In this document: positions 1,072 through 20,480 of the stretch, one piece after another | How the letters are laid out: every line of letters begins with the position of its first letter | Numbering within the stretch: position 1 is the stretch's first letter | NCBI GenBank assembly: GCA_905250025.1 | Contig: CAJNOJ010000203.1 | Span: forward strand, 64,001-128,000 | Direction of reading: 5' to 3' | Source of the DNA: Adineta ricciae | Taxonomy: Eukaryota | Length of the DNA stretch: 64,000 bases | Made by a program: the position numbers and the translations under genes | Notes under the pieces: generated by a model | Told to the model about the DNA's origin: nothing | What the model saw: the letters and a program-made list of their open reading frames with translations, nothing else | Database searches by the model: none

Positions 1072-2021
1072 GTCTTTCTCTTAATGCTATGAATCTGGCA
1101 GATTGTGAAGAAAGGCGATCGTTAGGAGAGTGGGCACAGAAGAAGGAGAAAAAAATGAGAGAGATCAAGTTTCTTTTTTTTTCTCGTGATATGCTTCCAA
1201 TGGAAGAAATTGAATAAGTCTTCTTGGTTAAATGTTAGCCAAAGAACATTTTGTATCGTTATGAGAACTATGTAAAATAGGAAAGGGAGAACGAAATGAA
1301 TAAACCTTTTCATGAGTAAAATATATGATCAACCGATGTGAGAGAAGGAAAGACAAATAGCACCTTTCTTTTAATCACCCGCTATTACATATATTAACAA
1401 AGAACTGAGAGAAAACGTTTTTTCATATGTTGACATGCATATTTCGTAGTACTGATGAATCAAAATTGATTTATTCGATTCGTTTCGATAATACTTCTAC
1501 GTATAGCAAATGTTATGCTTTATTATGTTGTCAGAAACATGCCAGGCATGTAGCAAAGTATGAGTCACTTTACTTAATCACTACTTCATATAAAGAAACG
1601 AGCATGTGTTCGTTTTGATTCGTCTTCATCGTGCAGAGATGTTCGATTGTTGACAAAAAGTATTGTATTAGCGATATCGGATATATTGCCAATATTTCAC
1701 AATCATGTCGTCGTCTAAAATGTAAGATCACAGAGAAGAACTTTGCCGTCAGTATAATACTTTATAAAAGTGAACTTTAACTCTTTTCTCATGTATTATA
1801 TTACGTACAGAACAAACGAAAATAAGTTCTTAGTAAAAGATTATAAAATTGCACATGAACAGTTATAACATGCACAACAACCGCCCATACAACCACAGCT
1901 ATTCAATGGGTAGTCATTCTCATAGATTATATGACGTCCTTGAGCATCGGAATATTGACAAAAACGAAATCGATTTCCTACGAATGAAAAGAATCAGTGA
2001 ATTATCGAATTATTCGAATGA

Positions 2022-2963
2022 TTATGTCGTACCTCGAGAAAAATCTTTCTTATTTGTATATTTCGCTTCTAGCACATATTCGATCTCTTCAAAATCCAGC
2101 CGTTCTATATCACACTCTAATCGGCGCATTTGATTCGATAGTTTCATGGTTTCATTCAAATGTTTGTCTTTATAATCACGCACTATATTGCTCTTCAACG
2201 GTACAGACGAATTATCCTCATTGATTGTGCGAACGAAATCTTCTATTGCTGACTCTTTCGTCCACGGCGTTTCCGATTTCGACCACATCGAAGCTTTGTT
2301 CACATGCGCGATTTTGTCCTCAGGTAAAAACGAATCCTGATAGTACCACATCGACACTCGCGTTTCCCACCAGACACGTAACGTAGCCGAATGGAGAAAC
2401 ACTCCATAACCTTCACATTTCGTACATTGTAATCGACCTTTTCCACTACACGTTTTACATATGATTAATCCGTCTTTACAAAGCGAACATCGAGTTCCAT
2501 CTGATTTTAATCCTTGACTACATGATAAACATTTCTCTGAGCCATTGACACAACGATGATTAGTACAAGTTAAATTTCCTTCTCCTTGACATACTTCACA
2601 ATTGCTTGTATAGTCATGTTCAGATAAAGATCGTTTTTGTTCGGACTTTTTCTCCGCGGAAATCGGTAGTTGAAATTGATAATCTAGCCAAATGTCAAAG
2701 ATGGGTTGAATCGAATGATTTATTCGTTTTTTCGTCGCTTTCTTTGTCCAAGAGAGCTCTCGGTTTTCGAAGAGGATTTTCATTCGACATTGATAAGCGG
2801 CTTTTTTTTCGATTTTCGTGATTTGTGCGTGATTTAAAGGACCAGAATAGTAACAACTCTTCGAATCTATGTACCTTTTCAATTCATCGAGATGTTTCGA
2901 AGGTTCTCTCGATGACAATTGACTTGGATCGATGATAATTCCCGTATGCACTTTATTCGCCAT
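2022..2963 (-). CDS. DnaJ-type CXXCXGXG zinc-finger repeat protein (SSUH2-like), no J domain
   Basis: 313-aa ORF containing four tandem CXXCXGXG motifs (CEVCQGEG, CSLCKDG, CKTCSGKG, CTKCEGYG) typical of the DnaJ central Cys-rich domain and of SSUH2. No HPD J-domain motif seen. Confidence 0.45.
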   Translation of the reverse strand: MANKVHTGIIIDPSQLSSREPSKHLDELKRYIDSKSCYYSGPLNHAQITKIEKKAAYQCRMKILFENRELSWTKKATKKRINHSIQPIFDIWLDYQFQLPISAEKKSEQKRSLSEHDYTSNCEVCQGEGNLTCTNHRCVNGSEKCLSCSQGLKSDGTRCSLCKDGLIICKTCSGKGRLQCTKCEGYGVFLHSATLRVWWETRVSMWYYQDSFLPEDKIAHVNKASMWSKSETPWTKESAIEDFVRTINEDNSSVPLKSNIVRDYKDKHLNETMKLSNQMRRLECDIERLDFEEIEYVLEAKYTNKKDFSRGTT

Positions 2964-3614
2964 CAGACGCAGCTTTCGATCAGCCGAAATTCGTTTTTAT
3001 GAGCGTTCTTACTAAAATCCTTTGCTGATACACACACCATAAAACATGTGTATATACATTCTTATCTTATCTTTTCCAGTAAATAGATTTTTCGATTTAC
3101 TCGTTGCCATAACAAATCAAATCATCAGCCAGTCGTCGCGATAAATCTTCTTGTACAGAGAGAACGATTTAACAATGACGGAGGAGTGGTCTTCACAAGC
3201 ATATCTCTGACATAATCATATTACTTTACTAATATCGACTGTAGTTCTGTGATGAAATTCAATCAGAACAGAGTAGACAAATCTGTAATTCAAGAGCACA
3301 GGTACATATTGATCTTATCAGACAGATGAAATCTATGTTTGATGTAACAAATTGCTTCGCCGTCGTTGTCATTTTCGACGTATTTCATCTGCGTTTACGT
3401 CTCGAGTACATAAAATACAATCCGATCATCATCATTGTCTTTTTCTCACCATCGATCGATGTACAATCAGCAAGAAAAGGACGTGCTTTAACATTTGTTC
3501 AAATAAATGCAGTTTGTATATGCGAGGGTGTTCGACGTGTTCAATCTCTGATATATAAATATCTTCAAAGTCATGCAATTCATTCATTTTTTTTAAGATT
3601 AAACTTATTCGAAT

Positions 3615-4290
3615 ATGAATTATATTCAACGTTCGTTTCATCCGACCACCGTACGAGAAAATGTTTCCTTACCATCGCAAACGGTGAAAGCATCATCATC
3701 ATCATCATCTTTGCATAATGGCGTACGTTTCAATGATTTAATACCAACAACGCAGCCTTGTGATGATCGAGAAAAATATCTCACTGCGTACAGATGAATT
3801 CAAATATTAATTTTGTCTGAATGAGTTATTTCTTCTAGGAAATATCCTCAACAGCAAATGCAATTGATACGTAAGCGTTTAAAAATTGAATTCTGGCTTG
3901 ATGATGAATTACGAATGCTTTACAATATCAAGGTATAATTTTGTAGTCAATCGAAAATGGTAGAGATGATTTTTATTATTCTAAGGATGATTCGGATGAA
4001 GACCATAACCACTGTCCGGGTGATTTGATCGATTCTCTTTTAGATATCGACGATGAATTTGAACGACGCGAATTTTTAGTCGTAAGTTGTCTTGCTTGCC
4101 ATTAATTCACTTCCTATTCGCAATCTGTAGGAGAAACTAAGAAATGTCAAACAAACTCGTTCGCTATTAATGGTAAATATTGATCAATTAGTTGATCATT
4201 GTCACATAAACATGTTTGTTTTCGTTTAGGATTTCATTGACGAATTGTTACATCGTGTAAAAATGTTGTAATTAGACAAAACTTATTTTT
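3615..4290 (+). CDS. PPP1R14/CPI-17-family-like PP1 inhibitor (multi-exon, boundaries approximate)
   Basis: Spliced reading gives ...KRLKIEFWLDDELRMLYNIK / SIENGRDDFYYSKDDSDEDHNHCPGDLIDSLLDIDDEFERREFLV / DFIDELLHRVKML*. This resembles the CPI-17/PHI-1 core (RRLDVEKWIDGRLEELY ... IDELLEL.SEEER ... FVQELLVKL). Introns carry GT..AG ends. Confidence 0.35.
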
Positions 4291-4561
4291 TATTTGTCTA
4301 TCTCGTTTGAATAGAAAAACTAATGAATGAAAAACTATTTCTACAGGTAGATGGGCACTAGCGCGACTTTGTTGGGCGAATGTATTCATGGAATTGTCGA
4401 TATTTTTCACGTTGTTTTCGAAGATATTTGTCAATTTGATATGTTATTTCATCGAAATCTTTTTGAATAATCACGTTGTATTCTCGCTCGAGATCTTTGA
4501 TTTGTTGTTGACTAGAACATGCAGAGAAAGAGTGTCAAAGTGAGAGAGCAAAGGATTCTTT

Positions 4562-5266
4562 CTACTCGACAACATTGCATGATGTGGAAAGAGCACGTGA
4601 GATTGGTTGAGGAGCATTTTTCACCGGTTTTAATTGATCGTCTCGGTACCAATCTTTACTATTCGCTGGTAGATTCTGTTCGACTTTGATTCCGACTTGT
4701 GATGGTCGCAGTGCTGGCTTAACTGCCAAGGATGTTCGTCCAGCGAAATGAGTTTGTCCCGAAGCGAAAACAGACCGAACTGAATTAATTGAATCGAATT
4801 CAATATAAACATATTCCACGCCATTGCCGGAAGAGACGCATGTACAATTTAATATGCGTCCATATCTGGTAAACGCCTGAATAACAAGGAAGACATGTTC
4901 ATTTATGAATTCGTTTGACAATCCTACTTTTTTAATAACATTTCGATCAAGTCTAGGGTTTGTATGAGCAATACAAACTTTTCTATCTAACATCAAACGT
5001 GCGTCTTCGTGGAAAGCTGCATCATATGAGTGAATATCCAGACGAATCCGACATATCGTGTGGTCGATTTTATTTGTTAGGAATACATTTATATCTGTTT
5101 CAGGCGAAAAACGTATAAAACGATAATCAATTAACCATTCGTCAGCAGCACGCGTGCAATTATGAAAGAATTCTTCAATATCACCAAACCGTTGAAAATA
5201 TTCCCGTAGGGTCTTGTCATCAATCGATTGGACATTTCCTACATAAATTACGTTGGAATAATTCAT
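4562..5266 (-). CDS. Hypothetical protein with two weak RRM-like segments
   Basis: 234-aa ORF. The N-terminal IYVGNV...LREYFQRFGDIEEF resembles RNP2 plus helix 1 of an RRM. A second VEYVYIEFDSINSVRSVF segment is RNP1-like. Assignment is weak. Confidence 0.3.
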   Translation of the reverse strand: MNYSNVIYVGNVQSIDDKTLREYFQRFGDIEEFFHNCTRAADEWLIDYRFIRFSPETDINVFLTNKIDHTICRIRLDIHSYDAAFHEDARLMLDRKVCIAHTNPRLDRNVIKKVGLSNEFINEHVFLVIQAFTRYGRILNCTCVSSGNGVEYVYIEFDSINSVRSVFASGQTHFAGRTSLAVKPALRPSQVGIKVEQNLPANSKDWYRDDQLKPVKNAPQPISRALSTSCNVVE

Positions 5267-6059
5267 CTAGAAAATGATTTCAGGACATGTACTTTTATTA
5301 AGAACATTCTCCGCCAGTCAGACAAAGTCAATTTAGTAATATCGAATCGATGATGAGGCACTGTTCGTAAACAGGATATACTAAGTAAACAGATGTCTCT
5401 AATAAGCGACCCGAGGTGTATTCTGATGTGGATGACCTATGTCATGTATGTTTGCTAGCAAGATCAACGTAAAACGATGGCGTGATTGGAATGATGTATG
5501 TGTGTTTCACTTGTCTTGCCGAATTAGTATGGGCTGTTTGTATACGCTTCGCAAAAATCTCATTTCCATTGAATTAATATCGATATACATCGATCACTTC
5601 TTCAAAATTAGTGTTAAAAATATTATCTCTTACGAAGTTTTTCTGTTTTCGACAGTATGACGTTCTTCTTTTTCTTTTCTTTGTCTGCTCCAAGACAATC
5701 TCAAATTGCGACTAAATGCCTCTCATGTTCCGCAATAGCAATTCTGCTTTCATTCGCTTTTCTATTTGTAAGAAATAGTACTCTCTCTCTTCTTCTATTC
5801 CTTGGCGAGCTCTATTCGATGAACTCTGGCTATGTGTCGATTGAACTAGATGACGCAGAGTGCTCGCAGTCAGTCAGAAAAAAAAGAATCTCATATTCGT
5901 CGTGCGAGAGAAACGCAAAAGAGGGAAAGAAGAAAAACTGGAACAACTCTGCACGAGACGTTCATTCTTTCGCTATCGACGTCAAACGCGCAACAGAAAA
6001 GCGAAGAAAAAACACAAAATATTATTGTTGTTTAGTCATCGCACGGATCTTTTGTTAAG

Positions 6060-6955
6060 ATGTCATCCGTTATTCATGCACTCACTGGACATGGTGTTCA
6101 TCCAGAAAAGAATTCCAATTCGTCCGCGGTTCACACAGTTACATATGAAGATGTCAAAGTTAAATCCGTAGTTAGTAGCCATACGGAAACCAAATCCGCT
6201 CCATCAGATGCAAAAAGTAAAATGAATGAATTGATGTCTAAATTGGGTATGTTTGTCAGATTTGTTTTTCTTAATATGAATGTTATTTTTGTATTTTCTA
6301 GGTTCGACACATGCGCAAATTGATGAATATTCACGTCGTCGTACACAAGAAATATCAGAGGCTGTCAAGGGTAGTATAGATAAGATTGTTCATCTGACAC
6401 AAGTGCAACAACAGCAGTTGCTCGATGACGCTGCAAAAGAAACGAACAAAATTGAAGACGAATTTAAGAATCGATTGATGGTGTAAGTTAGTCATTATGA
6501 GAAAAACCAAGTTCAGTTCTGCTTACTGTTTGTAGGGCGATCAATGAACTTGATCAAGATAAAGCAACGCAGTTAGTGGATTTAGAAAAGGATTTGAATC
6601 TTCATCAAGAACAGATTCTTGAATCAGCTCGCAAACGTATTGATGCAGTTCATGAGGAAGCAAATCGATTAAAGATGGTAAACAATGCAAGATTTCGTTT
6701 CTATTCGTCGTTTATGCTTCTATTTGTGTACATAGAATATTCTCAAAGAAGCTCAAGCGAAGACAAATTCAAAGATCGAAGAAATTACTGAAAAAGTAGC
6801 ACAGGTAAGACTATTAACACACTTCTCTTATATTCAAGCATTTCTGTTCGGATTTAGCTTGGAGCCGAGGATGCAGGTCGTCGTTTATCGACGAAAACAA
6901 CAACAATCATAACCACGCAAGCACAAGCTGAAAGTCATCCGACTAAACACAATTG
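6060..6955 (+). CDS. Hydrophilic K/E/Q-rich coiled-coil protein, 5 exons (~225 aa)
   Basis: Exons are approximately 6060-6247, 6302-6483, 6535-6680, 6741-6810 and 6858-6955. Introns have gtatgt/gtaagt donors and (t)nag acceptors. The translation is continuous and charged (…IDEYSRRRTQEISEAVKGSIDKIVHLTQVQQQQLLDDAAKETNKIEDEFKNRLM / AINELDQDKATQLVDLEKDLNLHQEQILESARKRIDAVHEEANRLKM …). No signal peptide. Confidence 0.5.
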
Positions 6956-7497
6956 ACCCTACTGTACATATTGTCGTTTAAACTATATAGTATTTGTAGA
7001 ATGTATGATCGTTGTATACTTCCTCGTGCGTACCATTCAGTATCATTATTACCAGTTCAGTACATTGTAATACAAGCTTATGCAATAATTATTTGTCAGT
7101 CTTATCTGGAAAATTTTATTTTCGAGTCATCATGCATTTGCGCTGTTGTTTGTGATTAATGACTAATCAGAAACGATGTAGAAAAAAGAATAAAAGAATA
7201 TTGGTGATAAGCTATTGCGATGTCCAAATAGAATTGGTACTGGAAAAATAGAAAAATATTGCGTTGAATTGATAAGCGTCTCTATGCAAGATATGATGAA
7301 AGTTATTGACCTTGTGAAAAACTAAAAAAGTGTTTTTTGTATCGATCTAACAAAACTTAATTCAACCGATAAGTGCAAAAATGATTTATTCGTTATCGTT
7401 TGACGAGAAAATCAATCAGATGACAATGTTATTCGTTTTGTATTACGCAGATGGGTGCTATCTCAGTTATACGTAGGTGTTCTCAGAAAGAATCGAG

Positions 7498-7505
7498 TAT
7501 AAAAG
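7498..7505 (+). promoter_or_regulatory. TATA box (TATAAAAG) about 82 nt upstream of the ATG of the 7587 gene
   Basis: The sequence gagTATAAAAGgagtg is seen directly. The paralogous gene at 19685 has the same element at the same spacing. Confidence 0.4.
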
Positions 7506-7586
7506 GAGTGCGTTTTTCGTTATAACTTCACCCATCATTCTCATCTTCTTATCCTCACTTACTACATTCGCACAAAACATTCAACA

Positions 7587-8391
7587 ATGAAAGCTGCTCT
7601 TGCTCTCATCTTCTTCGCTTGTGTTGCCGGTTCCATGGCTGCTGATGCCCGTGGTGACTTTCTTAACCAACTCGTCCAACAAGGACAAGTTGTTGCTCAA
7701 GGTGTCTTGAACCAACTTCAAGGTCAAATTCTCGGTCTTGTTCAACAAGCTCTCGGTCAACTCTCAACTCTTGTTGGTTCACTTGGTGGACGATTCGACA
7801 TCGACTTCAGCGCTATTCTCAACCAAATCAAACCCCTTCTTGCCGGAGCTGCCAATCAAGTTCTTGTTCAAATTCTTGGTAGCATCTCAGGTCTCATTGG
7901 TGGTATGTATCCATTTTCTCTTTGATAGCTTGCATCGCTATCGAATGTCTTCTGTAATAGGTCGTGCTAGCATTAACATTGGTGAAATCTTCAACGGTTT
8001 CCTCCAACAAATCACCACCCCACTTCTTGGTATTGGTCAACAACTCCTTAACCAAGGTTTAGCTGCCGTTCTTGGTGGAATCGCTGGATCACGTGGCTTC
8101 TCTGACATCTTCGCTTGTGAGTTTCGACACATCACCAATATCGAAAACAATACTTTCGTTATTTTCATTTTAGCACTCCAACAACAAGTCAGCGGTGTTG
8201 TGTCAGCTGCTCAAAGCGCTCTCTCAGGTGCTCTTGGTAGCCTCTCAGCTCTCGGCTCAAACATCCTCGATGCCTCAAAACCACACTGGGAACAACTTCA
8301 AGAACAACTCGTTGGTCACGGCCTCAACGTTCTTGGATCAATCTCAGAAACCATCAACAACGTCCATGGTTCAATCACCGGTGGTCGTTAA
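7587..8391 (+). CDS. Secreted Gln/Leu/Gly-rich low-complexity protein, paralog 1 (3 exons: 7587-7902, 7953-8116, 8174-8391)
   Basis: N-terminal signal peptide MKAALALIFFACVAGSMA. Phase-1 intron 1 (gtatgt...taatag) and intron 2 (gtgagt...cattttag) restore the frame. An AATAAA lies at about 8488 downstream. Paralog at 19685-20480. Confidence 0.7.
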
Positions 8392-8673
8392 GTGGCGGAT
8401 CGGAAATGATCGCTTTTTCCTCTAATCTAATTTTATTTTAATCTAATTTTAATTATATTCTCGGATGATGGGTTTGCATGAACGTCAATAAAAGGTCCCG
8501 TCATCACTGTTGACGCTCGAAATCGAAACTTTGCTATTACCTATAGAGAAAGAGAAACAAATTCCAGATAAAGTCAATACTGAATGAATATAGATTGATC
8601 ATATTTCCCCCTTTTTATATTTCAAGCAAATATACAAAGACTCAAGAATTGTAATATACATATACATAATGTT

Positions 8674-10599
8674 CTATAGGATATCTGTCGTTTGTATTGC
8701 TCCTCTTGAACACAAATCAGTATAGTCGGTTATATCATCATCATCATCATTATCAACGTCGTCGTCATCCTTCTCATCGACATCGTCGTCGTCCTCCTGT
8801 TCCTCCTCCTCCTCCTCATCATCATCGTCGTCTTGATCAGTGTTTTCTGGTTCATCTTCGTCCCAGTTATCCAGCTCGAACTCAGGACTAAACGGTGCTT
8901 GTTGATTTCCATCTTCGCGATCATGCAATAGACGATTGATAAGAAACGATGCACACGTTGTTTGAGGAAGATGCTGTGATGTTGATGGTAAACTCGTTTG
9001 TTGTTGTTGTTGCTGCTGCTGCTGACGAGAAAACTCCGTTGATATTGCCGTTGACACCAATTCGCTTTGTACGCGAAAGAAACCATCATTCCGCATAGTA
9101 TAGCTACACAAAGAAGGAAGAAACTCGCATTGACTTGAGAGATTACTCAATGACCTACCTCAATCGGGTACAGCCCATCGCTTTCCCGAGCTGATGAGCT
9201 TTCAGTAAATGCGCTGTCAGCTTTTTGCCTCGAGGAAAACGTCGTTCACATAGATGACAAGCATACTTGTATTGCCGCTAAAGAGAAAGTTTCTCACTTC
9301 TTGTTCACAAAATCTTCGCTTTTCCGTACTTCTTGTTTATCATCAGAACTTTTCATCTGTTCCTTTTCACGATTGTCTACGTCGTTGAGTTTGTCCAGCA
9401 ATGGAAGTAAATGCAAACGACGCCGATGAACAGTAAGACTATTTGCACATTTAAAACTGAGGAAGAGAGAAGAGAATGTTTATGACAATGAAGCATGAAG
9501 AGCAATGCCTTACGAGAGTGAACAATCCGGACATTGAAAATATTTGATATCAGTGTGACGATAGATAATATGTCGCTTCACTCCCGATGGGGTCGCAAAT
9601 ACTTGTGTGCAGTAAGGACACGCATGTTTCGTAGCTAAAACGAAGCGTTAGTAGTTGAATTGATTAGAATGCGAATTACTGTGTTTGTTGAGATGCTTTT
9701 GAAGGAGAGATTTCGACTGGAACTGTTGGGCACATTTTTCACATTGAAATTTCGGTGAGACTAGAAGAGACGATGTTGATTCCTTTCAAGTTCGTCGGTG
9801 TTTAGTCGTTTACCTTCGGTGGATAGTTGACAATGCTCGATAAATTTGACTCCACACGAAAACAAGGAGCCACACTGTGGACAAGCGATTGTTTTCTCTT
9901 GTGTATGCCGTCGTATATGCTCACGAATTCGATATGCTTTATCAGGACGATGTGTGCAACCTTAACATGAACAAAAGATGGTACAAAAACAAGTATTTTC
10001 TCGTCTCACCTGTCCAACGACAGACATCTGAACCGGCATGTTGATTAACATGTTCATAGAAAAGCTGTGCATGACTGTTGGTGTACTAAAGGTAAAGACG
10101 AAGAAAGAACGTCGAGCAGTGAACGAGAAGATAAATTACTTGGCAATCTCCCCAAGAACAGCGAAACTCAACGGGTAAATCTGGAATAATATTTCGATTT
10201 TCTGTCGACTTTTGACATAGAGGAATATTTGGATGATTGTGTTCGTAGGTTTTCATCCCCAAATATTTCAATTTCGTATGAAAACCATGGAATTTCACGT
10301 GTCGAATAAAGGACGAGATGTCAAATTCTTCGACATGACCGCAATTACGCCATTGACAGGCTAAGTCTATTCATAGAGAATGGACAATTTAGGCATTTAC
10401 AGTTTGAACACCATCGTTTCTTACGTGGTACTGCTTGATATTGATTGATATAGTTCGAAAGATGTTCATCTAAATGCTTATAGAATTCCTTGAGATCGTT
10501 TAATCGAACGCGACATTCAGCACCCCATTCACATTGTAAATCATATTCAAGTTCGCTAAGATTTGGTATATATCGTTTCAATCGTCGTTTCGCAGTCAT
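8674..10599 (-). CDS. C2H2 zinc-finger transcription factor (GLI/ZIC/GLIS-like fingers) with polyQ and acidic C-terminal tail; multi-exon
   Basis: The exon at 10345-10599 carries an atypical first finger C-x-W-x3-C…H-x3-H (LQCEWGAECRVRLNDLKEFYKHLDEHL). It is followed by EFRCSWGDCQ, as in GLI finger 2 (FVCHWGGC). Exons at about 9840-9960 encode classical fingers (CTHRPDKAYRIREHIRRHTQEKTIACPQCGSLFS). The terminal exon at 8674-9150 carries Q11 and a long D/E tract. Exon boundaries are not resolved. Confidence 0.55.
8998..9024 (-). repeat. CAG/CAA tract (Gln11-coding) in the zinc-finger gene
   Basis: The plus strand reads ttgttgttgttgttgctgctgctgctg, coding polyQ on the minus strand. Confidence 0.9.
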
Positions 10600-10799
10600 T
10601 TAATCTGAAACAAGAAACTCAGTGACATGAGCATTTTCTTGGCTTAGGCAAAAAATAAGTTCATTCTATGTAGAATCTGCACTGAATAAACACATTTTTA
10701 TGAACAGTCACTCATTCGGACATAGGGTTCTCTACGGCTTTGTGTTTCATGGTGCTAGCTAAATGGTACTATATTCACACTGATGTTTTATTCAGTTAA

Positions 10800-12944
10800 T
10801 TATATAGAATCATAATGAAGAAAAGAAGCAAGCCCAAGAAAGTTCTCTGCAGCCGTAGTTGGTGACGATGAGGAAGATGAAGAAGGTGAAAGCGGTGGTG
10901 GTTCAGGAGCTGGATTTGTGTTTACAATTGGTCCGTTAATAGCAGGTGATGGTAAAACAGATGCTGGGTCAGGATTTGGACGTTTATTGACGATTGCTTG
11001 GTTATTGGCAATAATTAACGGTTCTGCATATGGACGTCTGTCTACAACTGGCTGTTCAGTTGCAGTTGTTGGTGGAATTGATGGTGGTTCTGCAAACAAG
11101 CACTTACGTACGATTGGTTGTTCGACGGTAATAGTTGGCCGAAATGGTAATTGTTCAGGAGTTGACTGTTTCTTTACTATCGCTTCTTCCGTACTAATAA
11201 TCCACGGAAGCGGTCGTGGTTGTGGACTTATACGTCTATGTATCATTGATTCTTGATTCGTTGTAATAGATGCTGGCTCAGGGGACAGACGTTGACTTAC
11301 AGCTCGTTGTGTAGTAGCACTAGTTGATGAAACTGGTGGAAGCATAGGAAATTGGCGATTTGTTGCCATTGGTTGCTCACTAGCAACAACGGATGGCATT
11401 ACTGGAGGATCAGGCGACAGAAGTTTATGTACAACTCGCTGTTCGATGATATCACTTCGTGGATCTGGTAAGAATTCTATATATGAACGTCTATTCAGAA
11501 TCGGTTGTTCAACAGTTATACCTGATGAAAGTGGTACTGGCTGAGAGTGTGAAGATCTGTTTACGACTGGATGTTCACTGATAGTAATTGATGGAATGGA
11601 ACATGGTTGAGGAGGCGGACGTTTAGTCACGTTTTGTTGTCTCACAGCGGGAGCTAATGGAACTGATAGTAATTCAGGGGTTGGATGTTTTTCTATGATT
11701 TCTGGTTCAGTAGTGTGGATTGATGAAACTGCGGAGAGGGCGGTAAGTTGATGTTTTACGGCCACTGGCTGTTCTCTAATAATCACTGGTGGCATTGATA
11801 ATGGTTCGGCAGCAGGACGTTTGTGCATGAGTTCCGGTTCTCTAACAGTAGCTGATAGGACTGAGGCTGATTCAGGGTCTAAGTGTTTCTTTACAGTTTG
11901 CTGCTCAGTAGTAGCAGTTGATGAGGCTGGAAGCACACCAGAAGATTCTCGTTTTGTTGGCATTGCTTGCTCTTTAGTGGTCACCACTGGTATTACGGAT
12001 GGCTCTGGACATGACTGTTTATTCATTACTGGCGATTTCACGGTAGCAGCTGGTTCAATCAGTAACGATTCAGGACACAAATGTTTTTCCACAGTTTGTT
12101 GTTCAGTGGCGATAGTAGATGGAACCAGAGATGGTCCAGGAACTTGGTGTTCAGCAGCCAGTGGTTGCTCGATATATGGCGCTGAGGATGTAGGATGATA
12201 TGAACGTTCTTTCAATGTTTCTTGTTCAACAGGAACGGCTGATGAAATCGATAGCGGTTTTGCACACGACTGTCCACTTATTAGTGGTAGTTCAGGACTG
12301 ATAATTGTCGACGCCGGTAAAGGTTCAGTATGTAGTCGTTTTCTGGGAGTAGGCTGTTCTACAGAGGTGATTGAAGAAGTTGGGAATGATTCTTCACGTG
12401 GTCGCTTGTTGGAACTTGGTTGTCTAATAGAAGCAGTTGATGGCTCAGGAGATGAATGTTTCTTCACATCTGATTGTTCAGCAATGGTAGTTGTCAGACC
12501 TGACGTTGGCATGAGAGGCGGATGTTTCTTTGTGATCGATTGCTCAGCGATGGAAGTTGATGGCACCGGCGATTTTGGCAAACACGTATGGTCGCTTACA
12601 GTCGGTTCTTCAAAAGAAGCGCTAGATTTGACCGCCGATTTTTCTTCACATGAGCGTTTATTTACATCTGACTTTTCAATGGTGGAAATGGCCAATAAGG
12701 TTTCATTTGCCGGTGGCTGTTTGGTTGTGGTAGAAGATGAAGCGAGTGATGTCTCAGAAGACTCGCCTTTATTGGTCACTGATTGTTCCGTCGTCCTAGT
12801 CGAAGGAAGCGGTTCTGGTTTGGGAGCTGGACGTTTATCGGCAGTGGATTGATCGGTGGTAACGGCTGACGAAATAGGTGATCGTTCGGAATCTATTCGC
12901 TTGCTCGCAGGCGGCTGTTCAACAATTGTAGTCGGCCTTTTCTA
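10800..12944 (-). CDS. Mucin-like Pro/Thr/Ser-rich repeat protein (degenerate ~30-aa repeats)
   Basis: A 659-aa ORF continues upstream to an acceptor at about 12944. Repeats are of the form (S/T)…EQP.V.K(H/R)..PEP…, as expected of a heavily O-glycosylated PTS domain. More 5' exons probably lie upstream. Confidence 0.55.
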
Positions 12945-13141
12945 AATGGTGAAGGAAACGTGACTATGAACTCATATATTCCAATTGGCGTCGAAAGTAC
13001 TCAGACTATACGAATAGAATTTATCTTTATGGCTTCGCTAATCCTTTCAGTCATGTGAATTACTTTCGACTTCTGTTTCTTCGGCGTATAGATCAAGGTC
13101 AAGTTTTCCGCTTTTGGATTTTCCGGTAAATGGCTGGAGAA

Positions 13142-16100
13142 CTAAATAAAACACGAATATAACCATACACGACAAATACAACTCAGCTTCACTTTTAGAA
13201 TCGGCCGATAACGTTGAAAAGTCGACTCGACTAACTCATCCAATCGTGAATTGTGATAAAATTCAGGATAGTTTCTGATCAAATTATACAAGTGAATAGA
13301 TGTTTCGAATAGAATCGGTATTGAGACACTATTTGGATCACTTTCATCCATCGAGGCAAGGATTTTCAAACCCTCACGTTCGATGTCATCCCGCGTTTTA
13401 CTTGTCACCTACAATACCATCGAGAAATCGAACGAAACTCTCAACAAGAAAGCGAACCTTTTTCTTCACAGTTCGAACGAAATTTTTAATGATATGTTGA
13501 CACAACATCTTCCTTTCTACTTCACGAACATATTTCCTATATAAAAACAGATCATATTTCACTACTCGAAAGTTGTTTTCATTTCGACGAATTACTTGTC
13601 TGGATCTGGCTTTGCCAGTAATTGTCGTAATACTTCCAGCAGGATACCAAAGTTCTCCTCGAAGCGGAGAAGCAGATCAACAAATAATCGAGTTGATTTG
13701 TACATCGATGCATTGAATGAACCCGTACGGTCAGCGTCCAATGGTTGAATTCGCCATATACCCTACATCGATGGTCATTGTTCATTTGCTCTAGCTCAAT
13801 ACTTATCAACTTACATTGAAAAGATTATGTTTCGAACGTTCTTGATACAAGCCAATAACTCTCGGATAATTCTTCAATTCGAGTACACTTCCGCCAAGAA
13901 AGAACTCCAGACTAAGTCGATCGTTTCGATAGTATTCGTTTGTATGGAAAAAATGCGCAAGACGATAAAGCGCACGATAATGACGATTGTATCGAGCGAT
14001 GCAAATATAGAGACCTTCGACGCATAACCAAATGCACTTGTGGTACAAGGTCAGCCACGGGTCGGTAGCCTGATCTGGAAAATATGCAAACATGGCAATG
14101 GAATTACTATTTACAACGAGTTAAACCTTGTTGAGCAGGAAAATATTGCGCGCTGATCAGCTGATTCGAATGAGCGTCGTTCGGACTAAAATTTATGAGA
14201 CACGTCCATCGTTGTCGAAAGAGAAAACGACTTACATAGTTGACTTTTCATAGTAGCTCGTAGCGAATGCTTTTGTTTGCATCTCGACCAGGAACTCATG
14301 CAATTCATTCAGTTTTTCGATGGTAAAATCAACTGTTTCTTTATTATGACGATTCAAATATTTGAGAGTCGATGCATGAATTCGGTAGAACATCTATAAT
14401 GGACACGTAGTGGAACAATTTCATTACGAAAACAAAAGGACTTCATACTTCAACAGCATGGCAACCGAGTAAAGTGCCCTTAGAATTCGATGTCGATGTG
14501 TGATGACCGAGTTTACGTGGGTAGACTGCTTTATTTTCATGTAGAAGATCGAGAGCCTAAAAAAATGATGTGCTTGCCGAGAACATAAACATTCGTTTCC
14601 ATCGTACCGAAGCATATTTCTTCAATGCATGGAGTAATTTACTTCGATGGAGTTTCTCTTCGATCTTCGCCATCATATACAGGTGAGTCCAATCTTCTTT
14701 GTTGTCATCGTTATCCGTGCACAAATTCGCTTTTTCGTACGCCTCTTTGCATATGTTCAATAAAAACGATCGCTCGGGGACGTATTCCGCTGCTTTTTCT
14801 CTCTGAAAGGAGAAGATTTCGAAAGCAAAGAAGAAATCAATGCATTCGTACGTATTTCGAGCAATAGGATTGCAAAATGTATGTAATTTCAGCATATTCC
14901 ATCCATAGAGTATGATTATTACTTTCAACAGAGACCGCTTGTCGGAAATAGCACGACGCTGACATGTGAACATTGAAGATTCGCGCATCGAAATCATCAG
15001 CCTGAAAAAAATATTTTCATATTTCCAACTCTTTCTTCAACACTCACCGTGATTAGTTCTTCGATCTTAGCAAATTCAATCACAGTCAAACCAGCCCACG
15101 AATCAAACCGTTTTGTATTCATACAAAGATCTTTGATATAGTATTCTTGTGCTTTTCTATGTGATTGAAAAACGTGTTTGATGGAGCGAAGCTCTTGTTT
15201 AGTTACTTGTTTGATGATTCATTCGATACTGCATCTTTCGAACCCATTTTCAGATGATAATCAGCGAAGAGATAATATAGATCTTTTTCGAATAAACTAA
15301 AACCAAGAAGTAGAAGCTCGAAGGAGTGAAGAATAGTTTCGTTTACGCATTATTTGCTGTAAATGGCTTGTCGGATAGATGTAATAGTTCTTCGCTTTGT
15401 TTGCCTTGATTATTGATCGATGTGGCATCGGACACATACGATATCAGGAGCTTTCTTCGGCGTTCACGCTCGTCATCCCATTCGATCATTGATTCAAATC
15501 TTTGAAAAAGACTTTCCGTCTAAAAAGCGACGAATCATCGTTTTCCGGTGCATTCACACAAGTTTTCTCATACTTCGTTCGTTACTGTGCAAGTACGACC
15601 TTCATAACCGGGCAGTTGTCTTGGTCGCAAGGCATAAAACACAATACTCGCTTTTTCCAATGTTAGCTCAAGCTAAGCTTCCGATTCAAATGACTGATTT
15701 CGTGCAGAAATTCTTTCTTACCGATCGACAGTTGTGATCGTCCAAGTACTTCATCTTGGATTTACGTAGGACCAGACCGTATAGACAATAGATACACTGT
15801 TCAATTTCATCCATCACCTTTGAGAATCTATTCTTTTGTTCGTCGCCGTCTTCTAGTGACTTCGAGTCGATGTTTTGTTTCGAAAATAAAATCTTTCGAA
15901 TGTCGGGATGTTCAATTTGAATAAGTTCGAGGAGGAAATATTCCAGCAGAATACCCTTTTCGATCAAACACACTTCATGTCTATGAATAGGCACGGAACG
16001 GTCACGGAAATGTTTATAAGAAAACCGACATACTTTCCGAATAGTTCGTGGATCGTTCGTACGAATGAGACGATGAACTGTTCGGTCTTCTTCGAATCGC

Positions 16101-19100
16101 GTCTAACACGAGAAACCTCAGAGAAAGAAAGAATAACACTCGCAAAACGTACTTCATTGTAACACGATACAGAAGTATCCAAGGATTCGTTGATTTGAAT
16201 GGCCAAACATTCTCTCCTGAGCAATCTCGTTTCATGATTGAGTCAATTAAGTTCAATGTTAACTTTTCAACTGTTTTCAATGATACATCTCGCCATGGAG
16301 AATCTTCATTCAGTATTCTAAAAGTGAGAAACGATTGGAATTCGTTCACGCTCGAATTGCTCGTTCTTTACTTGATCATCATATCGATGACTTCGATGAG
16401 TATTTGATCGAATATCTTGCGAACATTGAGATTATCTTTGTCATTCAAGTGTTGGTTTTCGTTGAGAACACTGATCAATGTTTCGTAACATTTAGTTAAC
16501 GATTTCTGTTGTAATTGGCGTTGAGTGCATAGATTGGCATAGAACAACTTGATTTTCTTTTCTAATTTCTTGATCAAAGAAACTAATTCGTCTTTCTCAT
16601 CAGCGACAGCGATGCGAGAGAGAATGTAAGTTAGTTCTTGCGACGATGAAGAATTCGAAGATGTGGAACTGCTGTTCTTCAAACGAAGGCAAAGTGCTTC
16701 AATCGTACCTAAAGCAACACATGGAAATCCGTTCGATTGACAACGAACCATCTCACTTACTCTTCGAAATCGTCGCGTGATTGAAGAGATTTGGCAGGAC
16801 AATGGTGAAGTCTTCGGGCAAGATACGTTGTAGTTGATAAACGCAAGCTAATGCGTCTTCTTGAACATCGGATAAGAAATAATACAACGACGAAATCCAG
16901 AGAACTAGACATGAATAAATAGAACAAAACAGAGTGTTGGAAATGAAGATATTCACTCCGATAAAACATTTCATTGATTTCAAATTGGCTTTGTTGAATC
17001 GAGCTGTTCTTGAAGAGATACAAGAAGAATTGCAAGCGTGCGAAACAATATCCGAGGAATTTATATTTGACTTTTAACCGAGCGAAACAGCTGAATCTAA
17101 AGAAAAGATTCCCGTTCGAGAACAAAACAAACTGATCGAAACGTACCGTTCGATAGAATCTTCGGATAGATCAGATTTCGCTGATCCGAGCGCATTTTCG
17201 ACGTAGCACACACAAGCACGAAGGTGATTCGGTTCGATTTCAGCTACAAATCAAATGGCATACTAATGTAGATTCGACGTGAGTGCCTACTGGTCGGGTA
17301 TTGAATGTGATCAAGAAGACAATCGAAGAGTTTCGTGAAAATCACGCGCATTTCAGTTGACCTACGAGAAATTTCGAGAACTTGTGTAGGAGAATGTATT
17401 CAAGAGAAAACAACCGACCATAGCGTTGACGAATGTTTTGTGAGTTCATTGACGTATTTACAGATGAAATCGAGATAGTGGAACTGATGTCCAGATTTGA
17501 TTGTGTCGTCGATGAGTTGAATGAATGACTTGTATTCGATGGTGAGTGAAGGAAATGTTTCTTTTGGCACATCAGAAGGTAGCGCTAGAGCGAACTCTGT
17601 GAATGAAAATGAGCTGTGAAATTCTCTTGCGATCGGTAACTAACCTTCATCGAGATTATCAGGCGAAATCAGCGTTTCATCTGCTTCTTCATCAGAACTA
17701 GAGAACAAAACAACGACAACATGGAAATACGATCAAAATGCAATACCTATCATCCTTATTTGCAAGAAGTCGTTTTAGTTTGTCTACTGTGCTGACATTA
17801 TTTTCATCGGATATCATCCGAGTGACCTAAAACGTGGATTTACAAAAAAAGCACACAAACGATTTCATTCAACTAACACTTCGTGCGGATCGCCGTTTTT
17901 CGTAGTCATCAAGGTTGAGCGGCAACTGTGAACGCTTTTTCCGCTGGTTTGGTACCGGTGGTGGTGGCGGTGGCGGCTGTTCCTCAGATACCACTGCTTC
18001 TTGTTCCATCGGTTCAGGTTGCGGTGCTTCAACTACGACTGGTTTTTTTGGTAAGAAATTCTTGATCTCAATTAGTTTACAGAGTTTCTACAACATAATC
18101 TTTTATTCTTTTCATGACGAACTTCGCTTTACCGTATTATCATTGCTTGATTCTCGTATCTTTTTCGTTAAGTATTGACCTAACTCTTGAAAACTATGCA
18201 CAAACATATCGCTTTATCGAGTAATTCCCAAGATGTTCATTACTTTTCGATACTTGGGCTTTCATCAACACTTTTCCTCTCGACGATTCGATTGTTTCTA
18301 TTGAATAGTTTCTCTTTAAACTTCGCAATGTTTACTTCCAACTCTTGGATTCTCTTCGGAAGATCATCGTCGTGCACAATATATTCAATTTCATTTTTGA
18401 ACATCTTTTCAATCAAGACTTTCATCGACGGCTGTTTCTTCTCGAGTAGCACCAAACACAATTGACCTAAGTCGTATACCGACTGAGAGGTGGCAACACG
18501 ATCATATCCGATACGAATATATTCCAGACATTCTAAAATCGAATTCAAAGCAATTCACTCGACCGAGCAGATCCTACTTGAAAAATTGCCGAGAATGTAA
18601 TAGAAGTAAATGAGTTGTTCCAAACATTTCCAATGAATATGCTCGTGACTGATTTCAATTGTCTACGGAAAGACTATGGGTAACAAACAGCTCAGTCTTA
18701 ATGAATTACTTTCTCTAAGCATATTTTCACTTGATAGATGTCGGATAATTCAAGATAGCACATGCCCATTTCATAGTAGATCGTCGAGACGCGATTGTTG
18801 ATCGCATTCGCCTGAAAATAAACAGTCGATGTGCGAAAGAGACCAACAAAAGAACGAACGTTGTCAAAACAGCGGATCGCTTTCTGATAAGAACCTAATT
18901 TCCGATACCAAATGCCACATTCCGTGAGAACAGTCCATTTGAGATTGATCCTTGATCGTTCGTTTTCATGATTGTGATTGACGACTGTCTTCTCGATGCA
19001 TTCGAGTTTAAGGATGCGTTCAAGTAGTTCGACTTTCTTTTCACCGTCGATCGTGTTTTCATTTTTGACTTGTAAATATTCGCCGTATAAGTCGAGCGCT

Positions 19101-19300
19101 TGTGCTACCTAAAGAACTGCTCTACAGCGAATAAATCGATTGGTTTTGACGCTATGCATACTTGGTCCTTATCGTGTTCGATAGCGTTAAATAAATCATC
19201 AAGTTGAATTTCACCTCGACTAGCATCAATAATCATCGTGCTCGAAGTAAATCGAAACAAAGAATTATCAACTGTCAATGATAAATAGATCAATGGTTGT
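13142..19300 (-). CDS. CABIN1: CABIN1/HIR3 homologue (calcineurin-binding protein cabin-1-like), many exons
   Basis: Exon peptides match conserved CABIN1 blocks as I recall the human sequence. EIEQCIYCLYGLVLRKSKMKYLDDHNC (15686-15994) matches [60 protein letters not shown] (13806-14093) matches [33 protein letters not shown]. The N-terminal exons (18700-19100) are TPR-like. Extent and exon structure are approximate. Confidence 0.55.
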
Positions 19301-19607
19301 GCTCAACAACAAATAAGAAACGGGAGAAATGTTCACAAGTAGTGTCATCTATGATTCGATATGAAAAGACAGAAATAGCACATTTTTGCAATATTTTCGA
19401 ATGAAATCAATTAAGTGGGTCAACATGAATGATATAGAGTGACACGTGTTATACTTCTCAAAAGATTTCGAACTATTACACTGAAACAACGTAGGCGCCA
19501 GGCAAGTTAGAGATGAAAAAACGTATTTTCTAGTACTTAACAGTATTGGCGCGGAGGATCGACTGGCGATGTTCTCATCATGTATCAGCGATTGAAACGA
19601 GCGAAGA

Positions 19608-19615
19608 TATAAAAG
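19608..19615 (+). promoter_or_regulatory. TATA box (TATAAAAG) about 70 nt upstream of the ATG of the 19685 gene
   Basis: The sequence gaagaTATAAAAGctgtg is seen directly. It is at the same position relative to the ATG as in the paralog. Confidence 0.4.
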
Positions 19616-19684
19616 CTGTGCGAAATTGCTGAGTATCCTCATTGATACCTAATCCTTTTCGTTTGTTGGAAGAAATCAAGTACA

Positions 19685-20480
19685 ATGAAAGCTGCTCTCG
19701 CTGTCATCTTCGTTGCTTGTCTCACTGGCTCAATGGCTTCGGATGCTCAAAGCCGATTCATTGACCAACTTGTCCAACAAGGACAGAACATTGCTCAAAC
19801 CATCATGGGTCAACTTCAAACGAACATTATTGGCTTTGTTCAACAGGCTGCTAGCAATCTCGAGCCACTGAACGCTTTTATCGAAAGTCAACCGTTCTTA
19901 AACAATATTGTTGAACAAATCAAACCTCAGATCGCTGGACCCATCAACACCGTCCTTGCTCAAATCATCAGTGGACTCGGTGGTCTCATTGGTGGTACGT
20001 ACTTTTGAGTATTCTTTCAACAAGATGTTATTTCGTAACATAAACTAGGCCGTGCCAGCCTCGATCTTGGTGCCATCTTCAACGACTTCCTTCAACAAAT
20101 CACCACCCCACTTCTTGGTATTGGTCAACACCTTCTCAATCAAGGCTTAGGTGCCGTTCTTGGTGGAATCGCTGGATCACGTGGCTTCTCTGACATCTTC
20201 GCTTGTGAGTTTCAACACATCCACCAACATCGAACACAATACTTTCGTTATTTTCGTTCTAGCACTCCAACAACAAATCGCAGGTGCCGTCACTGTTGCT
20301 CAAAGTGCTCTCTCAGGTGCTCTTGGTAGCCTCTCAGCTCTTGGCTCAAACATCCTCGATGCCTCAAAACCACACTGGGAACAACTTCAAGAACAACTCG
20401 TTGGTCACGGCCTCAACGTTCTTGGATCAATCTCAGAAACCATCAACAACGTCCACGGTTCAATTGTCGGCCGAAAATAA
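19685..20480 (+). CDS. Secreted Gln/Leu/Gly-rich low-complexity protein, paralog 2 (3 exons: 19685-19994, 20049-20204, 20263-20480)
   Basis: Signal peptide MKAALAVIFVACLTGSMA. It has the same 3-exon structure and intron phases as the 7587 gene. Exon 3 and the end of exon 2 are almost identical at nucleotide level to paralog 1. AATAAA at about 20520. Confidence 0.7.

What the first reader, a model, noticed from the sequence alone, without database searches (positions are those of the whole stretch)
7587..20480. Paralogous secreted Q/L/G-rich protein genes with a sharply bounded, near-identical 3' tract (gene-conversion signature)
The genes at 7587-8391 and 19685-20480 share signal peptide, exon-intron structure and intron phases. 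Their first exons have diverged substantially at both protein and DNA level. From the end of exon 2 through intron 2 and almost all of exon 3 the two copies are nearly identical, including the intron and synonymous positions. For example, gctctctcaggtgctcttggtagcctctcagctct…caacaacgtcca(t/c)ggttcaat differs at about 2 positions in about 150 nt. A mosaic of an old divergent 5' half and a young identical 3' half indicates non-allelic gene conversion or a partial re-duplication. The proteins, ~230 aa with amphipathic LNQLxQGQ-type repeats, match nothing I recognise.
Basis: seen in the sequence. Interest (0 to 1): 0.6.

Follow-up and report, generated by a model that had tools for sequence, protein, structure and literature searches.

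The report
Gene conversion between two rotifer paralogs
Two neighbouring genes of the bdelloid rotifer Adineta ricciae that encode an uncharacterised secreted helical protein keep overwriting each other's 3' part by gene conversion, a well-known process shown here in an unusually clean example.

Summary
The window is Adineta ricciae (bdelloid rotifer). Genes A (7587-8391) and B (19685-20480) are three-exon paralogs with identical intron phases. Identity is about 60% up to ~7987 and about 91% after it (permutation P<1/2000).

The decisive test used Adineta vaga, which has the same A–zinc-finger gene–large gene–B arrangement.
- In exon 1, 47 informative sites group the genes by orthology and 3 by species.
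- In 8005-8375, which includes intron 2 and synonymous sites, the count is 0 versus 40.
- In the last 16 nt it is 4 versus 1.
- In the exon-3 tract, dS is 0.00-0.08 between paralogs and 0.45-0.50 between orthologs.

On the second A. ricciae haplotype, the paralogs on one chromosome are closer to each other than alleles are. Conversion is therefore recurrent, intrachromosomal and recent.

Three refinements apply. The tract begins within exon 2 at about 8005. It contains a divergent island at 8188-8207. The C-terminus is also under very strong protein-level constraint across the family.

The protein family is restricted to bdelloids and unnamed environmental transcripts. It has no Pfam domain and is predicted to form four amphipathic helices. 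Its function is unknown. This is a new instance of a known mechanism and of modest interest.

The parts
7498..7505 (+). TATA box (TATAAAAG) of gene A
   Evidence: The sequence was read directly. It is conserved in all five aligned copies. It lies 28 nt upstream of the 5' end of the environmental A-type mRNA L008, which aligns from window 7533.
7533..7586 (+). 5' UTR of gene A
   Evidence: It is homologous to the 5' end of the spliced, polyadenylated metatranscriptome contig L008. It is also homologous to the translated leader of transcriptome proteins P0002, P0004 and P0122. It groups by orthology with A. vaga gene A.
7587..7902 (+). Gene A exon 1: signal peptide (aa 1-18) plus the divergent N-terminal half
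   Evidence: Gene model; the protein is identical to P0001. Identity to B is 63.9%. Paralog dS is 0.985. 47 sites support orthology and 3 support concerted evolution.
7903..7960 (+). Gene A intron 1 (58 nt, phase 1), not homogenised in A. ricciae
   Evidence: GT..AG boundaries. Identity to B intron 1 is 59%. The two A. vaga genes have a 98.3% identical intron 1.
7961..8116 (+). Gene A exon 2; homogenised from about 8005 onward
   Evidence: Gene model. All differences up to 7998 are paralog-specific on both haplotypes. In 8005-8116, 11 sites group by species and 0 by orthology.
8117..8173 (+). Gene A intron 2 (57 nt, phase 1), inside the converted tract
   Evidence: Identity to B intron 2 is 89.5%, against 54% to the A. 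vaga ortholog. 14 sites group by species and 0 by orthology. There is no Rfam match.
8174..8391 (+). Gene A exon 3
   Evidence: Gene model.
8005..8375 (+). Whole conversion (concerted-evolution) tract in gene A; the partner in gene B is 20093-20464
   Evidence: Across 8005-8375, 0 sites support orthology and 40 support grouping by species (Fisher P = 2e-22 against exon 1). Coordinates in both genes were checked.
8188..8207 (+). Divergent island inside the tract (aa 163-169: VSGVVSA in A, IAGAVTV in B); the partner in B is 20277-20296
   Evidence: 10 of 20 nt differ. Eight sites are paralog-specific on both haplotypes. A-type environmental mRNAs keep the A state. Both A. vaga genes carry a B-like sequence here.
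8208..8375 (+). Youngest sub-tract, encoding the family-wide conserved C-terminal motif; the partner in B is 20297-20464
   Evidence: There are 3 differences in 168 nt (8217, 8253, 8367) and a perfect run of 113 nt. dS is 0.077 between paralogs and 0.45-0.50 between orthologs. Sites 8265 and 8341 group A with B and Ah with Bh, that is, by haplotype.
8376..8391 (+). Last codons plus stop of gene A, outside the tract (3' boundary)
   Evidence: 9 of 17 nt differ from B. Sites group 4:1 by orthology. The boundary sits at the same position in A. vaga.
8487..8492 (+). Polyadenylation signal AATAAA of gene A (poly(A) site about 8518)
   Evidence: It aligns with the AATAAA and poly(A) tail of the environmental mRNA contig L008.
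19608..19615 (+). TATA box (TATAAAAG) of gene B
19685..19994 (+). Gene B exon 1 (signal peptide plus divergent N-terminal half)
   Evidence: Gene model; the protein equals P0123.
20049..20204 (+). Gene B exon 2
20263..20480 (+). Gene B exon 3
20093..20464 (+). Conversion tract in gene B (partner of 8005-8375)
   Evidence: In the part matching 8064-8187, B shares the A/Ah state while its own allele Bh is the outlier. This indicates an A-to-B transfer on this haplotype.

Best explanation
A and B are old paralogs on one Adineta ricciae chromosome, in the same orientation and 11.3 kb apart. A zinc-finger gene and a gene of about 2260 aa lie between them.

The duplication predates the A. ricciae / A. 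vaga split. Since then, a bounded stretch has been repeatedly homogenised by non-reciprocal, intrachromosomal, non-allelic gene conversion. The stretch covers most of exon 2, intron 2 and exon 3 up to five codons before the stop: 8005-8375 in A and 20093-20464 in B. The likely process is repair of a break in one copy using the other copy as template, without crossover (inferred).

Transfers have gone in both directions.
- A to B over about 8064-8187 on this A. ricciae haplotype.
- B to A over the start of exon 3 in A. vaga.

The 3' edge sits where homology ends, at the divergent last codons and 3' UTR. The 5' edge and the island at 8188-8207 are where the copies are too diverged, or are kept different by selection, for conversion to spread (inferred).

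The converted part encodes the C-terminal motif LDASKPHWEQLQEQLVGHGLNVLGS(I/L)SETINNVHGSI. This motif is nearly invariant across the whole family, so homogenisation there costs nothing. The N-terminal halves are free to differ.

The proteins are abundant, secreted and cysteine-free, rich in Q, L and G, with four predicted amphipathic helices separated by G-[GS]-R turns. Their biochemical role is not established. My best guess, which is inferred and weak, is an extracellular amphipathic-helix protein that acts at a surface or lipid interface.
For: **Shown: origin and synteny.**
- The window is A. ricciae.
- Gene order A–ZnF–large gene–B–carboxylesterase is shared with A. vaga chromosome CP075492.1.
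- Flanks, UTRs and exon 1 group by orthology (47:3 sites).

**Shown: concerted evolution of the tract.**
- 8005-8375 groups by species with 0:40 sites, of which 14 are in intron 2 and 14 are synonymous sites of exon 3.
- The last 16 nt group by orthology, 4:1.
- dS in the exon-3 tract is 0.077, 0.025 and 0.000 for the three paralog pairs, against 0.45-0.50 for orthologs. Exon 1 paralog dS is 0.98.
- Intron 2 is 89.5% identical between paralogs but about 50% identical between species, so it is not a conserved element. There is no Rfam hit.

**Shown: recent, within-chromosome events.**
- The second haplotype (L002/L006) is 93-95% identical to the window.
- In 8263-8375, paralogs on the same haplotype differ at 1 nt and alleles differ at 3 nt.
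- Sites 8265 and 8341 are shared within each haplotype.
- In 8064-8187, B equals A and Ah while Bh is the outlier.
- The genome-wide homolog Ks in A. ricciae is 0.135 (PMC5916493). This is higher than the paralog dS in the tract.

**Shown: the genes are expressed as modelled.**
- A spliced, polyadenylated environmental mRNA of the A type exists.

**Shown: the protein.**
- Family-wide C-terminal conservation.
- An all-helical prediction with pLDDT 67.9.
- Amphipathic periodicity and extreme codon bias.
Against: - No population or experimental data show a conversion event directly. The number, direction and timing of events rest on few sites: two haplotype-grouping sites in exon 3, and about ten Bh singletons in intron 2.
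- Part of the low divergence in exon 3 could come from codon bias in a highly expressed gene (Q is CAA 26/26). However, orthologous dS of about 0.5 in the same codons shows that silent sites are free to change.
Confidence: 0.9

Rival explanations
1. There is no DNA exchange. The 3' part is similar only because purifying selection (on the protein, on codon usage, or on an RNA element) has preserved it since the duplication.
For: - The C-terminal motif is nearly invariant across Adineta and Rotaria proteins.
- dN in the tract is about 0 and orthologous dN/dS is about 0.02.
- Codon usage is strongly biased.
Against: - Selection cannot make silent and intron sites agree within a species yet differ between species. 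In 8005-8375, 40 sites group by species and 0 by orthology, including 14 intron sites.
- Orthologous dS in the tract is 0.45-0.50, so silent sites do evolve.
- Intron 2 is only about 50% identical between species.
- There is no Rfam family.
Confidence: 0.04
2. A single event in the A. ricciae lineage pasted the 3' part of one gene into the other, by partial re-duplication or unequal crossing-over. There has been no ongoing conversion.
For: A single sharply bounded tract with a common 3' edge would fit a single event.
Against: - The same region is independently homogenised in A. vaga, with different 5' limits. There the exon-3 island and intron 1 are also homogenised.
- Within A. ricciae the tract has layers of different age. 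Exon 2b and intron 2 are 89-93% identical, against about 98% for 8208-8375.
- Haplotype-specific states are shared by the paralogs on each haplotype.
- Unequal crossing-over would have deleted or duplicated the two intervening genes, but synteny is intact on both haplotypes and in A. vaga.
Confidence: 0.04
3. Assembly artefact: reads from two similar 3' ends were collapsed or swapped, creating a false near-identity.
For: Short-read assemblies of bdelloid genomes do collapse similar regions (PMC5916493).
Against: - The two copies still differ at defined sites inside the tract (8217, 8253, 8367, and six intron positions).
- The same pattern is present on the separately assembled second haplotype.
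- It is also present in the chromosome-level A. vaga assembly.
- The window sequence is reproduced exactly in another contig record.
Confidence: 0.02

Closest known systems
Interlocus (non-allelic) gene conversion and concerted evolution of linked paralogs. Examples: Caenorhabditis paralogs (PMC3966223), human duplicate genes (bioRxiv 10.1101/135152) and GOT1 paralogs of Tigriopus with islands of divergence (PMC3728101).
   Same: - Linked paralogs in the same orientation.
- Bounded tracts of a few hundred nt that include introns and silent sites.
- Paralogs more alike within a species than orthologs are between species.
- Divergent islands that persist inside or beside tracts.
- No change in gene order.
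   Different: Nothing in kind. The particular features here are:
- The host is an asexual, degenerate-tetraploid bdelloid rotifer.
- A second haplotype shows that paralogs on the same chromosome are closer than alleles.
- The same tract is homogenised independently in two species.
Allelic (homolog) gene conversion and loss of heterozygosity in bdelloid rotifers (Nowell et al. 2018, PMC5916493; Vakhrusheva et al. 2020, PMC7749112)
   Same: Same organism group, and presumably the same recombinational repair machinery (inference).
   Different: The exchange here is between paralogs 12 kb apart on one chromosome, not between homologous chromosomes. The alleles of A and of B remain 3-7% diverged.
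Exchangeable apolipoproteins and other amphipathic-helix proteins (Pfam PF01442 Apolipoprotein A1/A4/E)
   Same: - Secreted and cysteine-free.
- Long amphipathic helices with periodicity near 3.7 residues per turn.
- Weak sequence echoes: ApoA-IV at E = 0.005, and a precomputed PF01442 tag on one relative.
   Different: - No Pfam match at or near the curated cut-off.
- Very few charged residues; Q, G and L dominate.
- Fold search gives only generic helical hits.

This is a resemblance of style, not membership.
Multi-peptide precursors cleaved at G-K-R sites (neuropeptide or antimicrobial peptide precursors with amidation signals)
   Same: - A signal peptide.
- Three internally similar segments, each ending in G-[GS]-R.
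- Distant environmental relatives carry canonical GKR at exactly those columns, and G, GK or GY at the C-terminus.
   Different: - Bdelloid members have a single Arg, not a dibasic site.
- Segments are 38-79 aa, long for such peptides.
- There is no peptide evidence.

This is a lead only.

Membership tests
Non-allelic (interlocus) gene conversion / concerted evolution | The duplication is older than the species split (orthologous copies exist in a second species, with conserved flanks and gene order) | tested here: met
   Synteny A–ZnF–large gene–B is shared with A. vaga. The 5' flank, UTRs and exon 1 group by orthology, 47:3 sites.
Non-allelic (interlocus) gene conversion / concerted evolution | Inside a bounded tract, paralogs within a species are more alike than orthologs between species | tested here: met
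   In 8005-8375, 0 sites support orthology and 40 support species grouping. Fisher P = 2e-22 against exon 1.
Non-allelic (interlocus) gene conversion / concerted evolution | Homogenisation includes selectively neutral positions (synonymous sites and introns) | tested here: met
   Tract dS is 0.00-0.08 for paralogs and 0.45-0.50 for orthologs. Intron 2 is 89.5% identical between paralogs and about 50% between species.
Non-allelic (interlocus) gene conversion / concerted evolution | Divergence along the alignment is significantly non-uniform, with discrete boundaries | tested here: met
   Max chi-square is 101 at 7987, reached by 0 of 2000 permutations. The 113-nt perfect run is reached by 0 of 20000 permutations.
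Non-allelic (interlocus) gene conversion / concerted evolution | Non-reciprocal exchange without crossover (intervening genes retained) | tested here: met
   The intervening ZnF and large genes are present on both haplotypes and in A. vaga.
Non-allelic (interlocus) gene conversion / concerted evolution | Direct observation of a conversion event (pedigree, mutation-accumulation line or population polymorphism) | not testable with these tools
   Only reference assemblies are available.
Exchangeable apolipoprotein (Pfam PF01442 / apolipophorin-III type) | Sequence match to the family profile above the curated threshold | tested here: not met
   hmmscan of A and B gives no PF01442 hit; the best hits are unrelated at E = 0.13-0.42. 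The PDB profile search gives ApoA-IV at E = 0.005 with no stretch that passes on its own.
Exchangeable apolipoprotein (Pfam PF01442 / apolipophorin-III type) | Up-and-down amphipathic helix bundle that opens on lipid | tested here: inconclusive
LEA proteins of bdelloids (group 3 LEA, e.g. ArLEA1A/B; recalled from own knowledge) | Highly hydrophilic, charged 11-mer repeats and a match to LEA Pfam families | tested here: not met
   There is no LEA Pfam hit. The mature protein has only 7 K+R and 10 D+E in 211 aa, and the helices have positive mean hydropathy.
Multi-peptide precursor processed at basic sites | Signal peptide followed by repeated units separated by dibasic (K/R-R) sites, often preceded by Gly | tested here: inconclusive
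   A signal-peptide-like N-terminus and repeated units are present. Bdelloid members have G-G-R or G-S-R (a single Arg). Distant relatives have GKR at the same columns.
Multi-peptide precursor processed at basic sites | Detection of the mature peptides | not testable with these tools
   This needs peptidomics.

The most novel reading that the evidence does not exclude
The family could be a rotifer-specific, very highly expressed precursor. It would be cut at the conserved G-[GS]-R sites (GKR in distant relatives) into several long amphipathic helical peptides, some of them amidated, acting outside the animal as antimicrobial or surface-active agents. Under this reading, conversion keeps the invariant C-terminal peptide identical in linked copies while the N-terminal peptides diversify.
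Probability: 0.12. Interest if true: 0.55.

Novelty: new member of a known kind. Interest (0 to 1): 0.3.

Why it matters
This is a clean, fully bounded case of recurrent non-allelic gene conversion in an asexual bdelloid rotifer. A second species and a second haplotype serve as controls.

It shows three things:
- Exchange between linked paralogs can be more recent than the divergence of the two homologous chromosomes.
- Phylogenies or Ks-based dating of this gene family would be misled if whole genes were used.
- Homolog, ohnolog and paralog classes in bdelloid genomes can be blurred locally.

It also flags an abundant, bdelloid-restricted secreted protein family of unknown function as a target for experiment. 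It does not reveal a new mechanism.

Tried and rejected
- **Pfam search of A and B.** Nothing near threshold.
- **Profile search of PDB sequences.** Only composition-level hits.
- **Exhaustive profile search of 1.84 billion representatives.** Beyond bdelloids it found only unnamed environmental transcripts, plus a tail of long repetitive helical proteins that I regard as compositional.
- **Conversion between ohnologous loci on different chromosomes.** The evidence is equivocal: 3 orthology sites against 2 species sites in 8263-8375. I do not claim it.
- **GC-biased conversion.** GC3 in the tract (0.36-0.42) is not clearly above exon 1 (0.32-0.42).
- **A conserved RNA in intron 2.** There is no Rfam hit, and the intron is not conserved between species.
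- **Literature searches for the protein family.** Nothing relevant was found.
- **Loci for P0074 and P0125.** Look-ups failed, so the A. ricciae ohnolog array could only be sampled through one 837-nt contig.
- **Automatic splice enumeration for the upstream gene.** It failed or timed out. The gene was spliced by hand instead.


Full report
**What is there**

The window is from the bdelloid rotifer Adineta ricciae. The protein of gene A is 100% identical to an NCBI A. ricciae protein (P0001). An 18.4-kb stretch of the window is identical to contig CAJNOR010000840.1.

Both genes have three exons.
- A: 7587-7902, 7961-8116, 8174-8391 (229 aa).
- B: 19685-19994, 20049-20204, 20263-20480 (227 aa).

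Introns are GT..AG, 54-58 nt, and both are phase 1. My translation of B equals the annotated protein P0123. tblastn finds no further copy in the window.

Each gene has a TATAAAAG box (7498-7505 and 19608-19615). A 947-nt metatranscriptome contig (L008) is an intron-less, polyadenylated A-type mRNA. Its 5' end aligns at window 7533, and its AATAAA and poly(A) tail align at 8487-8492 and about 8518. This confirms expression, splicing and the transcript ends.

**Check of the observation**

Identity between A and B by region is as follows.

| Region | Identity |
|---|---|
| 5' flank | 44% |
| exon 1 | 63.9% |
| intron 1 | 59% |
| exon 2 | 88.5% |
| intron 2 | 89.5% |
| exon 3 to 8374 | 93.5% |
| last 17 nt | 47% |
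| 3' flank | 42% |

- A maximum chi-square scan puts the main breakpoint at 7987, with 60.2% identity to the left and 90.6% to the right. None of 2000 permutations reach the statistic.
- The longest perfect run is 113 nt (8254-8366). None of 20000 permutations reach it.
- The repeat finder independently reports 8133-8375 vs 20222-20464 at 93% and 7958-8133 vs 20046-20221 at 89%.

High similarity begins within exon 2, at about 8005. A 20-nt island at the start of exon 3 (8188-8207) is strongly diverged, with 10 differences.

**The decisive test: a second species and a second haplotype**

Adineta vaga chromosome CP075492.1 carries the same arrangement: A, a zinc-finger gene and a large gene on the opposite strand, B, then a carboxylesterase gene. 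The duplication is therefore older than the species split.

In a five-sequence alignment, the 5' flanks, UTRs, exon 1, the last codons and the 3' UTRs pair A with A and B with B across species. Exon 2, intron 2 and exon 3 pair A with B within each species.

Informative sites for the quartet A_ric, A_vag, B_ric, B_vag are as follows.

| Region | Sites supporting orthology | Sites supporting species grouping |
|---|---|---|
| exon 1 | 47 | 3 |
| 8005-8116 | 0 | 11 |
| intron 2 | 0 | 14 |
| 8174-8207 | 0 | 1 |
| 8208-8375 | 0 | 14 |
| last 16 nt | 4 | 1 |

Fisher P is 2e-22 for exon 1 against the tract.

Nei-Gojobori dS in the exon-3 tract is 0.077 (A/B), 0.025 (Ah/Bh) and 0.000 (A. vaga A/B). 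For the orthologs it is 0.45-0.50. In exon 1 the paralog dS is 0.98.

Silent sites and an intron that is only about 50% identical between species are homogenised within each species. This is concerted evolution by DNA exchange, not conservation.

**Timing and direction**

Contig CAJNOR010000124.1 (L002, L006) is the second A. ricciae haplotype. It is 92.8-95.2% identical to the window over 19 kb and carries Ah and Bh.

- In 8263-8375, paralogs on the same haplotype differ at 1 nt (A/B and Ah/Bh), while alleles differ at 3 nt.
- Sites 8265 and 8341 are shared by the two paralogs of each haplotype. No site in 8208-8375 groups the alleles.
- In about 8064-8187, B shares the state of A and Ah, while its own allele Bh carries more than ten private states, some of them equal to A. 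vaga. This points to an A-to-B transfer on the window's haplotype after the haplotypes diverged.
- The tract dS (up to 0.08) is below the genome-wide homolog Ks of 0.135 reported for A. ricciae (PMC5916493).

In A. vaga the homogenised parts differ. There is a 171-nt perfect run equivalent to 8207-8377. The exon-3 island is homogenised to a B-like sequence. A second tract covers the end of exon 1 and intron 1, with 1 difference in the 60-nt intron.

The A-specific island sequence (V-x-G-V-V-S) is kept in A-type transcripts from other Adineta-like animals. The A. vaga state is therefore best read as a B-to-A transfer.

Conversion has thus been recurrent, bidirectional and intrachromosomal, with a shared 3' limit at the point where homology ends.

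**Rivals**

- *Purifying selection alone.* It explains the invariant C-terminal peptide: orthologous dN/dS is about 0.02, and the motif is nearly invariant in 101 family members. It cannot explain silent and intron sites that co-vary by species.
- *A single partial re-duplication or unequal crossover.* This does not fit the independent homogenisation in two species, the layers of different age, or the intact intervening genes.
- *Mis-assembly.* This is unlikely. The pattern recurs on a separately assembled haplotype and in a chromosome-level assembly of another species, and the copies keep fixed differences inside the tract.
- *Exchange with the ohnologous locus on another chromosome.* This is not supported (3:2 sites).

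**The protein**

There is no Pfam family and no solved relative.

More than 200 relatives were found. All named ones come from bdelloids (Adineta, Rotaria, Didymodactylos). Many others are mRNA-sized contigs of about 900-1000 nt from environmental samples.

The mature protein is 16% G, 16% L and 12% Q. It has no cysteine and few charges. Codon bias is extreme.

The helices are amphipathic, with a periodicity of 94-98 degrees. They are separated by conserved G-G-R or G-S-R motifs.

Distant environmental relatives have GKR at exactly those columns. The three N-terminal segments resemble one another in profile comparison. This allows, but does not show, proteolytic processing into peptides. Function remains unknown. 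I rank an extracellular surface- or lipid-active helical protein first and a peptide precursor second, both as inference.

**Comparison with what is known, and verdict**

Non-allelic gene conversion between linked paralogs is well documented. The documented cases include tracts of a few hundred nt, inclusion of introns, and persistent islands of divergence. Examples are PMC3966223, bioRxiv 10.1101/135152 and PMC3728101.

Allelic conversion is a known theme in bdelloid genomics (PMC5916493, PMC7749112). I found no paper describing this gene family or its concerted evolution.

The finding is a well-supported new example of a known process in an uncharacterised, lineage-restricted gene family. 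Interest is modest.

Noticed in passing
L005 10001-10802, 12666-13467, 15280-16081 (A. vaga chromosome CP075497.1): The ohnologous region of A. vaga holds three tandem copies of the same family. They are spaced about 2.65 kb apart and are 97-98% identical over the whole gene, including introns. A. ricciae likewise has three near-identical ohnolog proteins (P0074, P0124, P0125). This could be whole-gene concerted evolution or a recent triplication; I did not resolve which.
   Followed up: partly
window 6060-6956 (+): Directly upstream of gene A lies a five-exon gene for a 225-aa hydrophilic, K/E/Q-rich, probably helical protein. It has no signal peptide and no Pfam hit above threshold. It is conserved at the same place in A. 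vaga (L001 8383-9286) and on the second A. ricciae haplotype (L006 1471-2365).
   Followed up: partly
L001 about 10282-10370 and L003 about 3282-3370 (A. vaga genes A and B; equivalent to window about 7868-7960): A. vaga has a second near-identical tract that A. ricciae lacks. It covers the end of exon 1 and intron 1, with 1 difference in the 60-nt intron. The 5' reach of conversion therefore differs between species.
   Followed up: yes
window aa positions 67-69, 105-107, 148-150 and 227-229 of protein A (DNA about 7785-7793, 7899-7902 + 7961-7965, 8090-8098, 8380-8388): Conserved G-G-R or G-S-R motifs separate the predicted helices. Unnamed environmental relatives (P0193, P0165, P0166, P0203) carry GKR at the first and third of these columns. 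Their C-termini end in G or GK, which looks like a prohormone-type cleavage and amidation signal.
   Followed up: partly
window 8674-10599 (-) and about 10800-19300 (-): The two genes between A and B are a C2H2 zinc-finger protein (about 500 aa) and a very large protein without Pfam hits. The large protein is 2245-2267 aa in A. ricciae but 1598 aa in the A. vaga annotation. The size difference was not examined.
   Followed up: no
window 8274 and 8277 (GATGCCTCA): Two synonymous states are shared by all A. ricciae copies, including the ohnolog copy C_ric. They differ from all A. vaga copies, including the ohnologs. This is too few sites to claim exchange between ohnologous chromosomes.
   Followed up: partly
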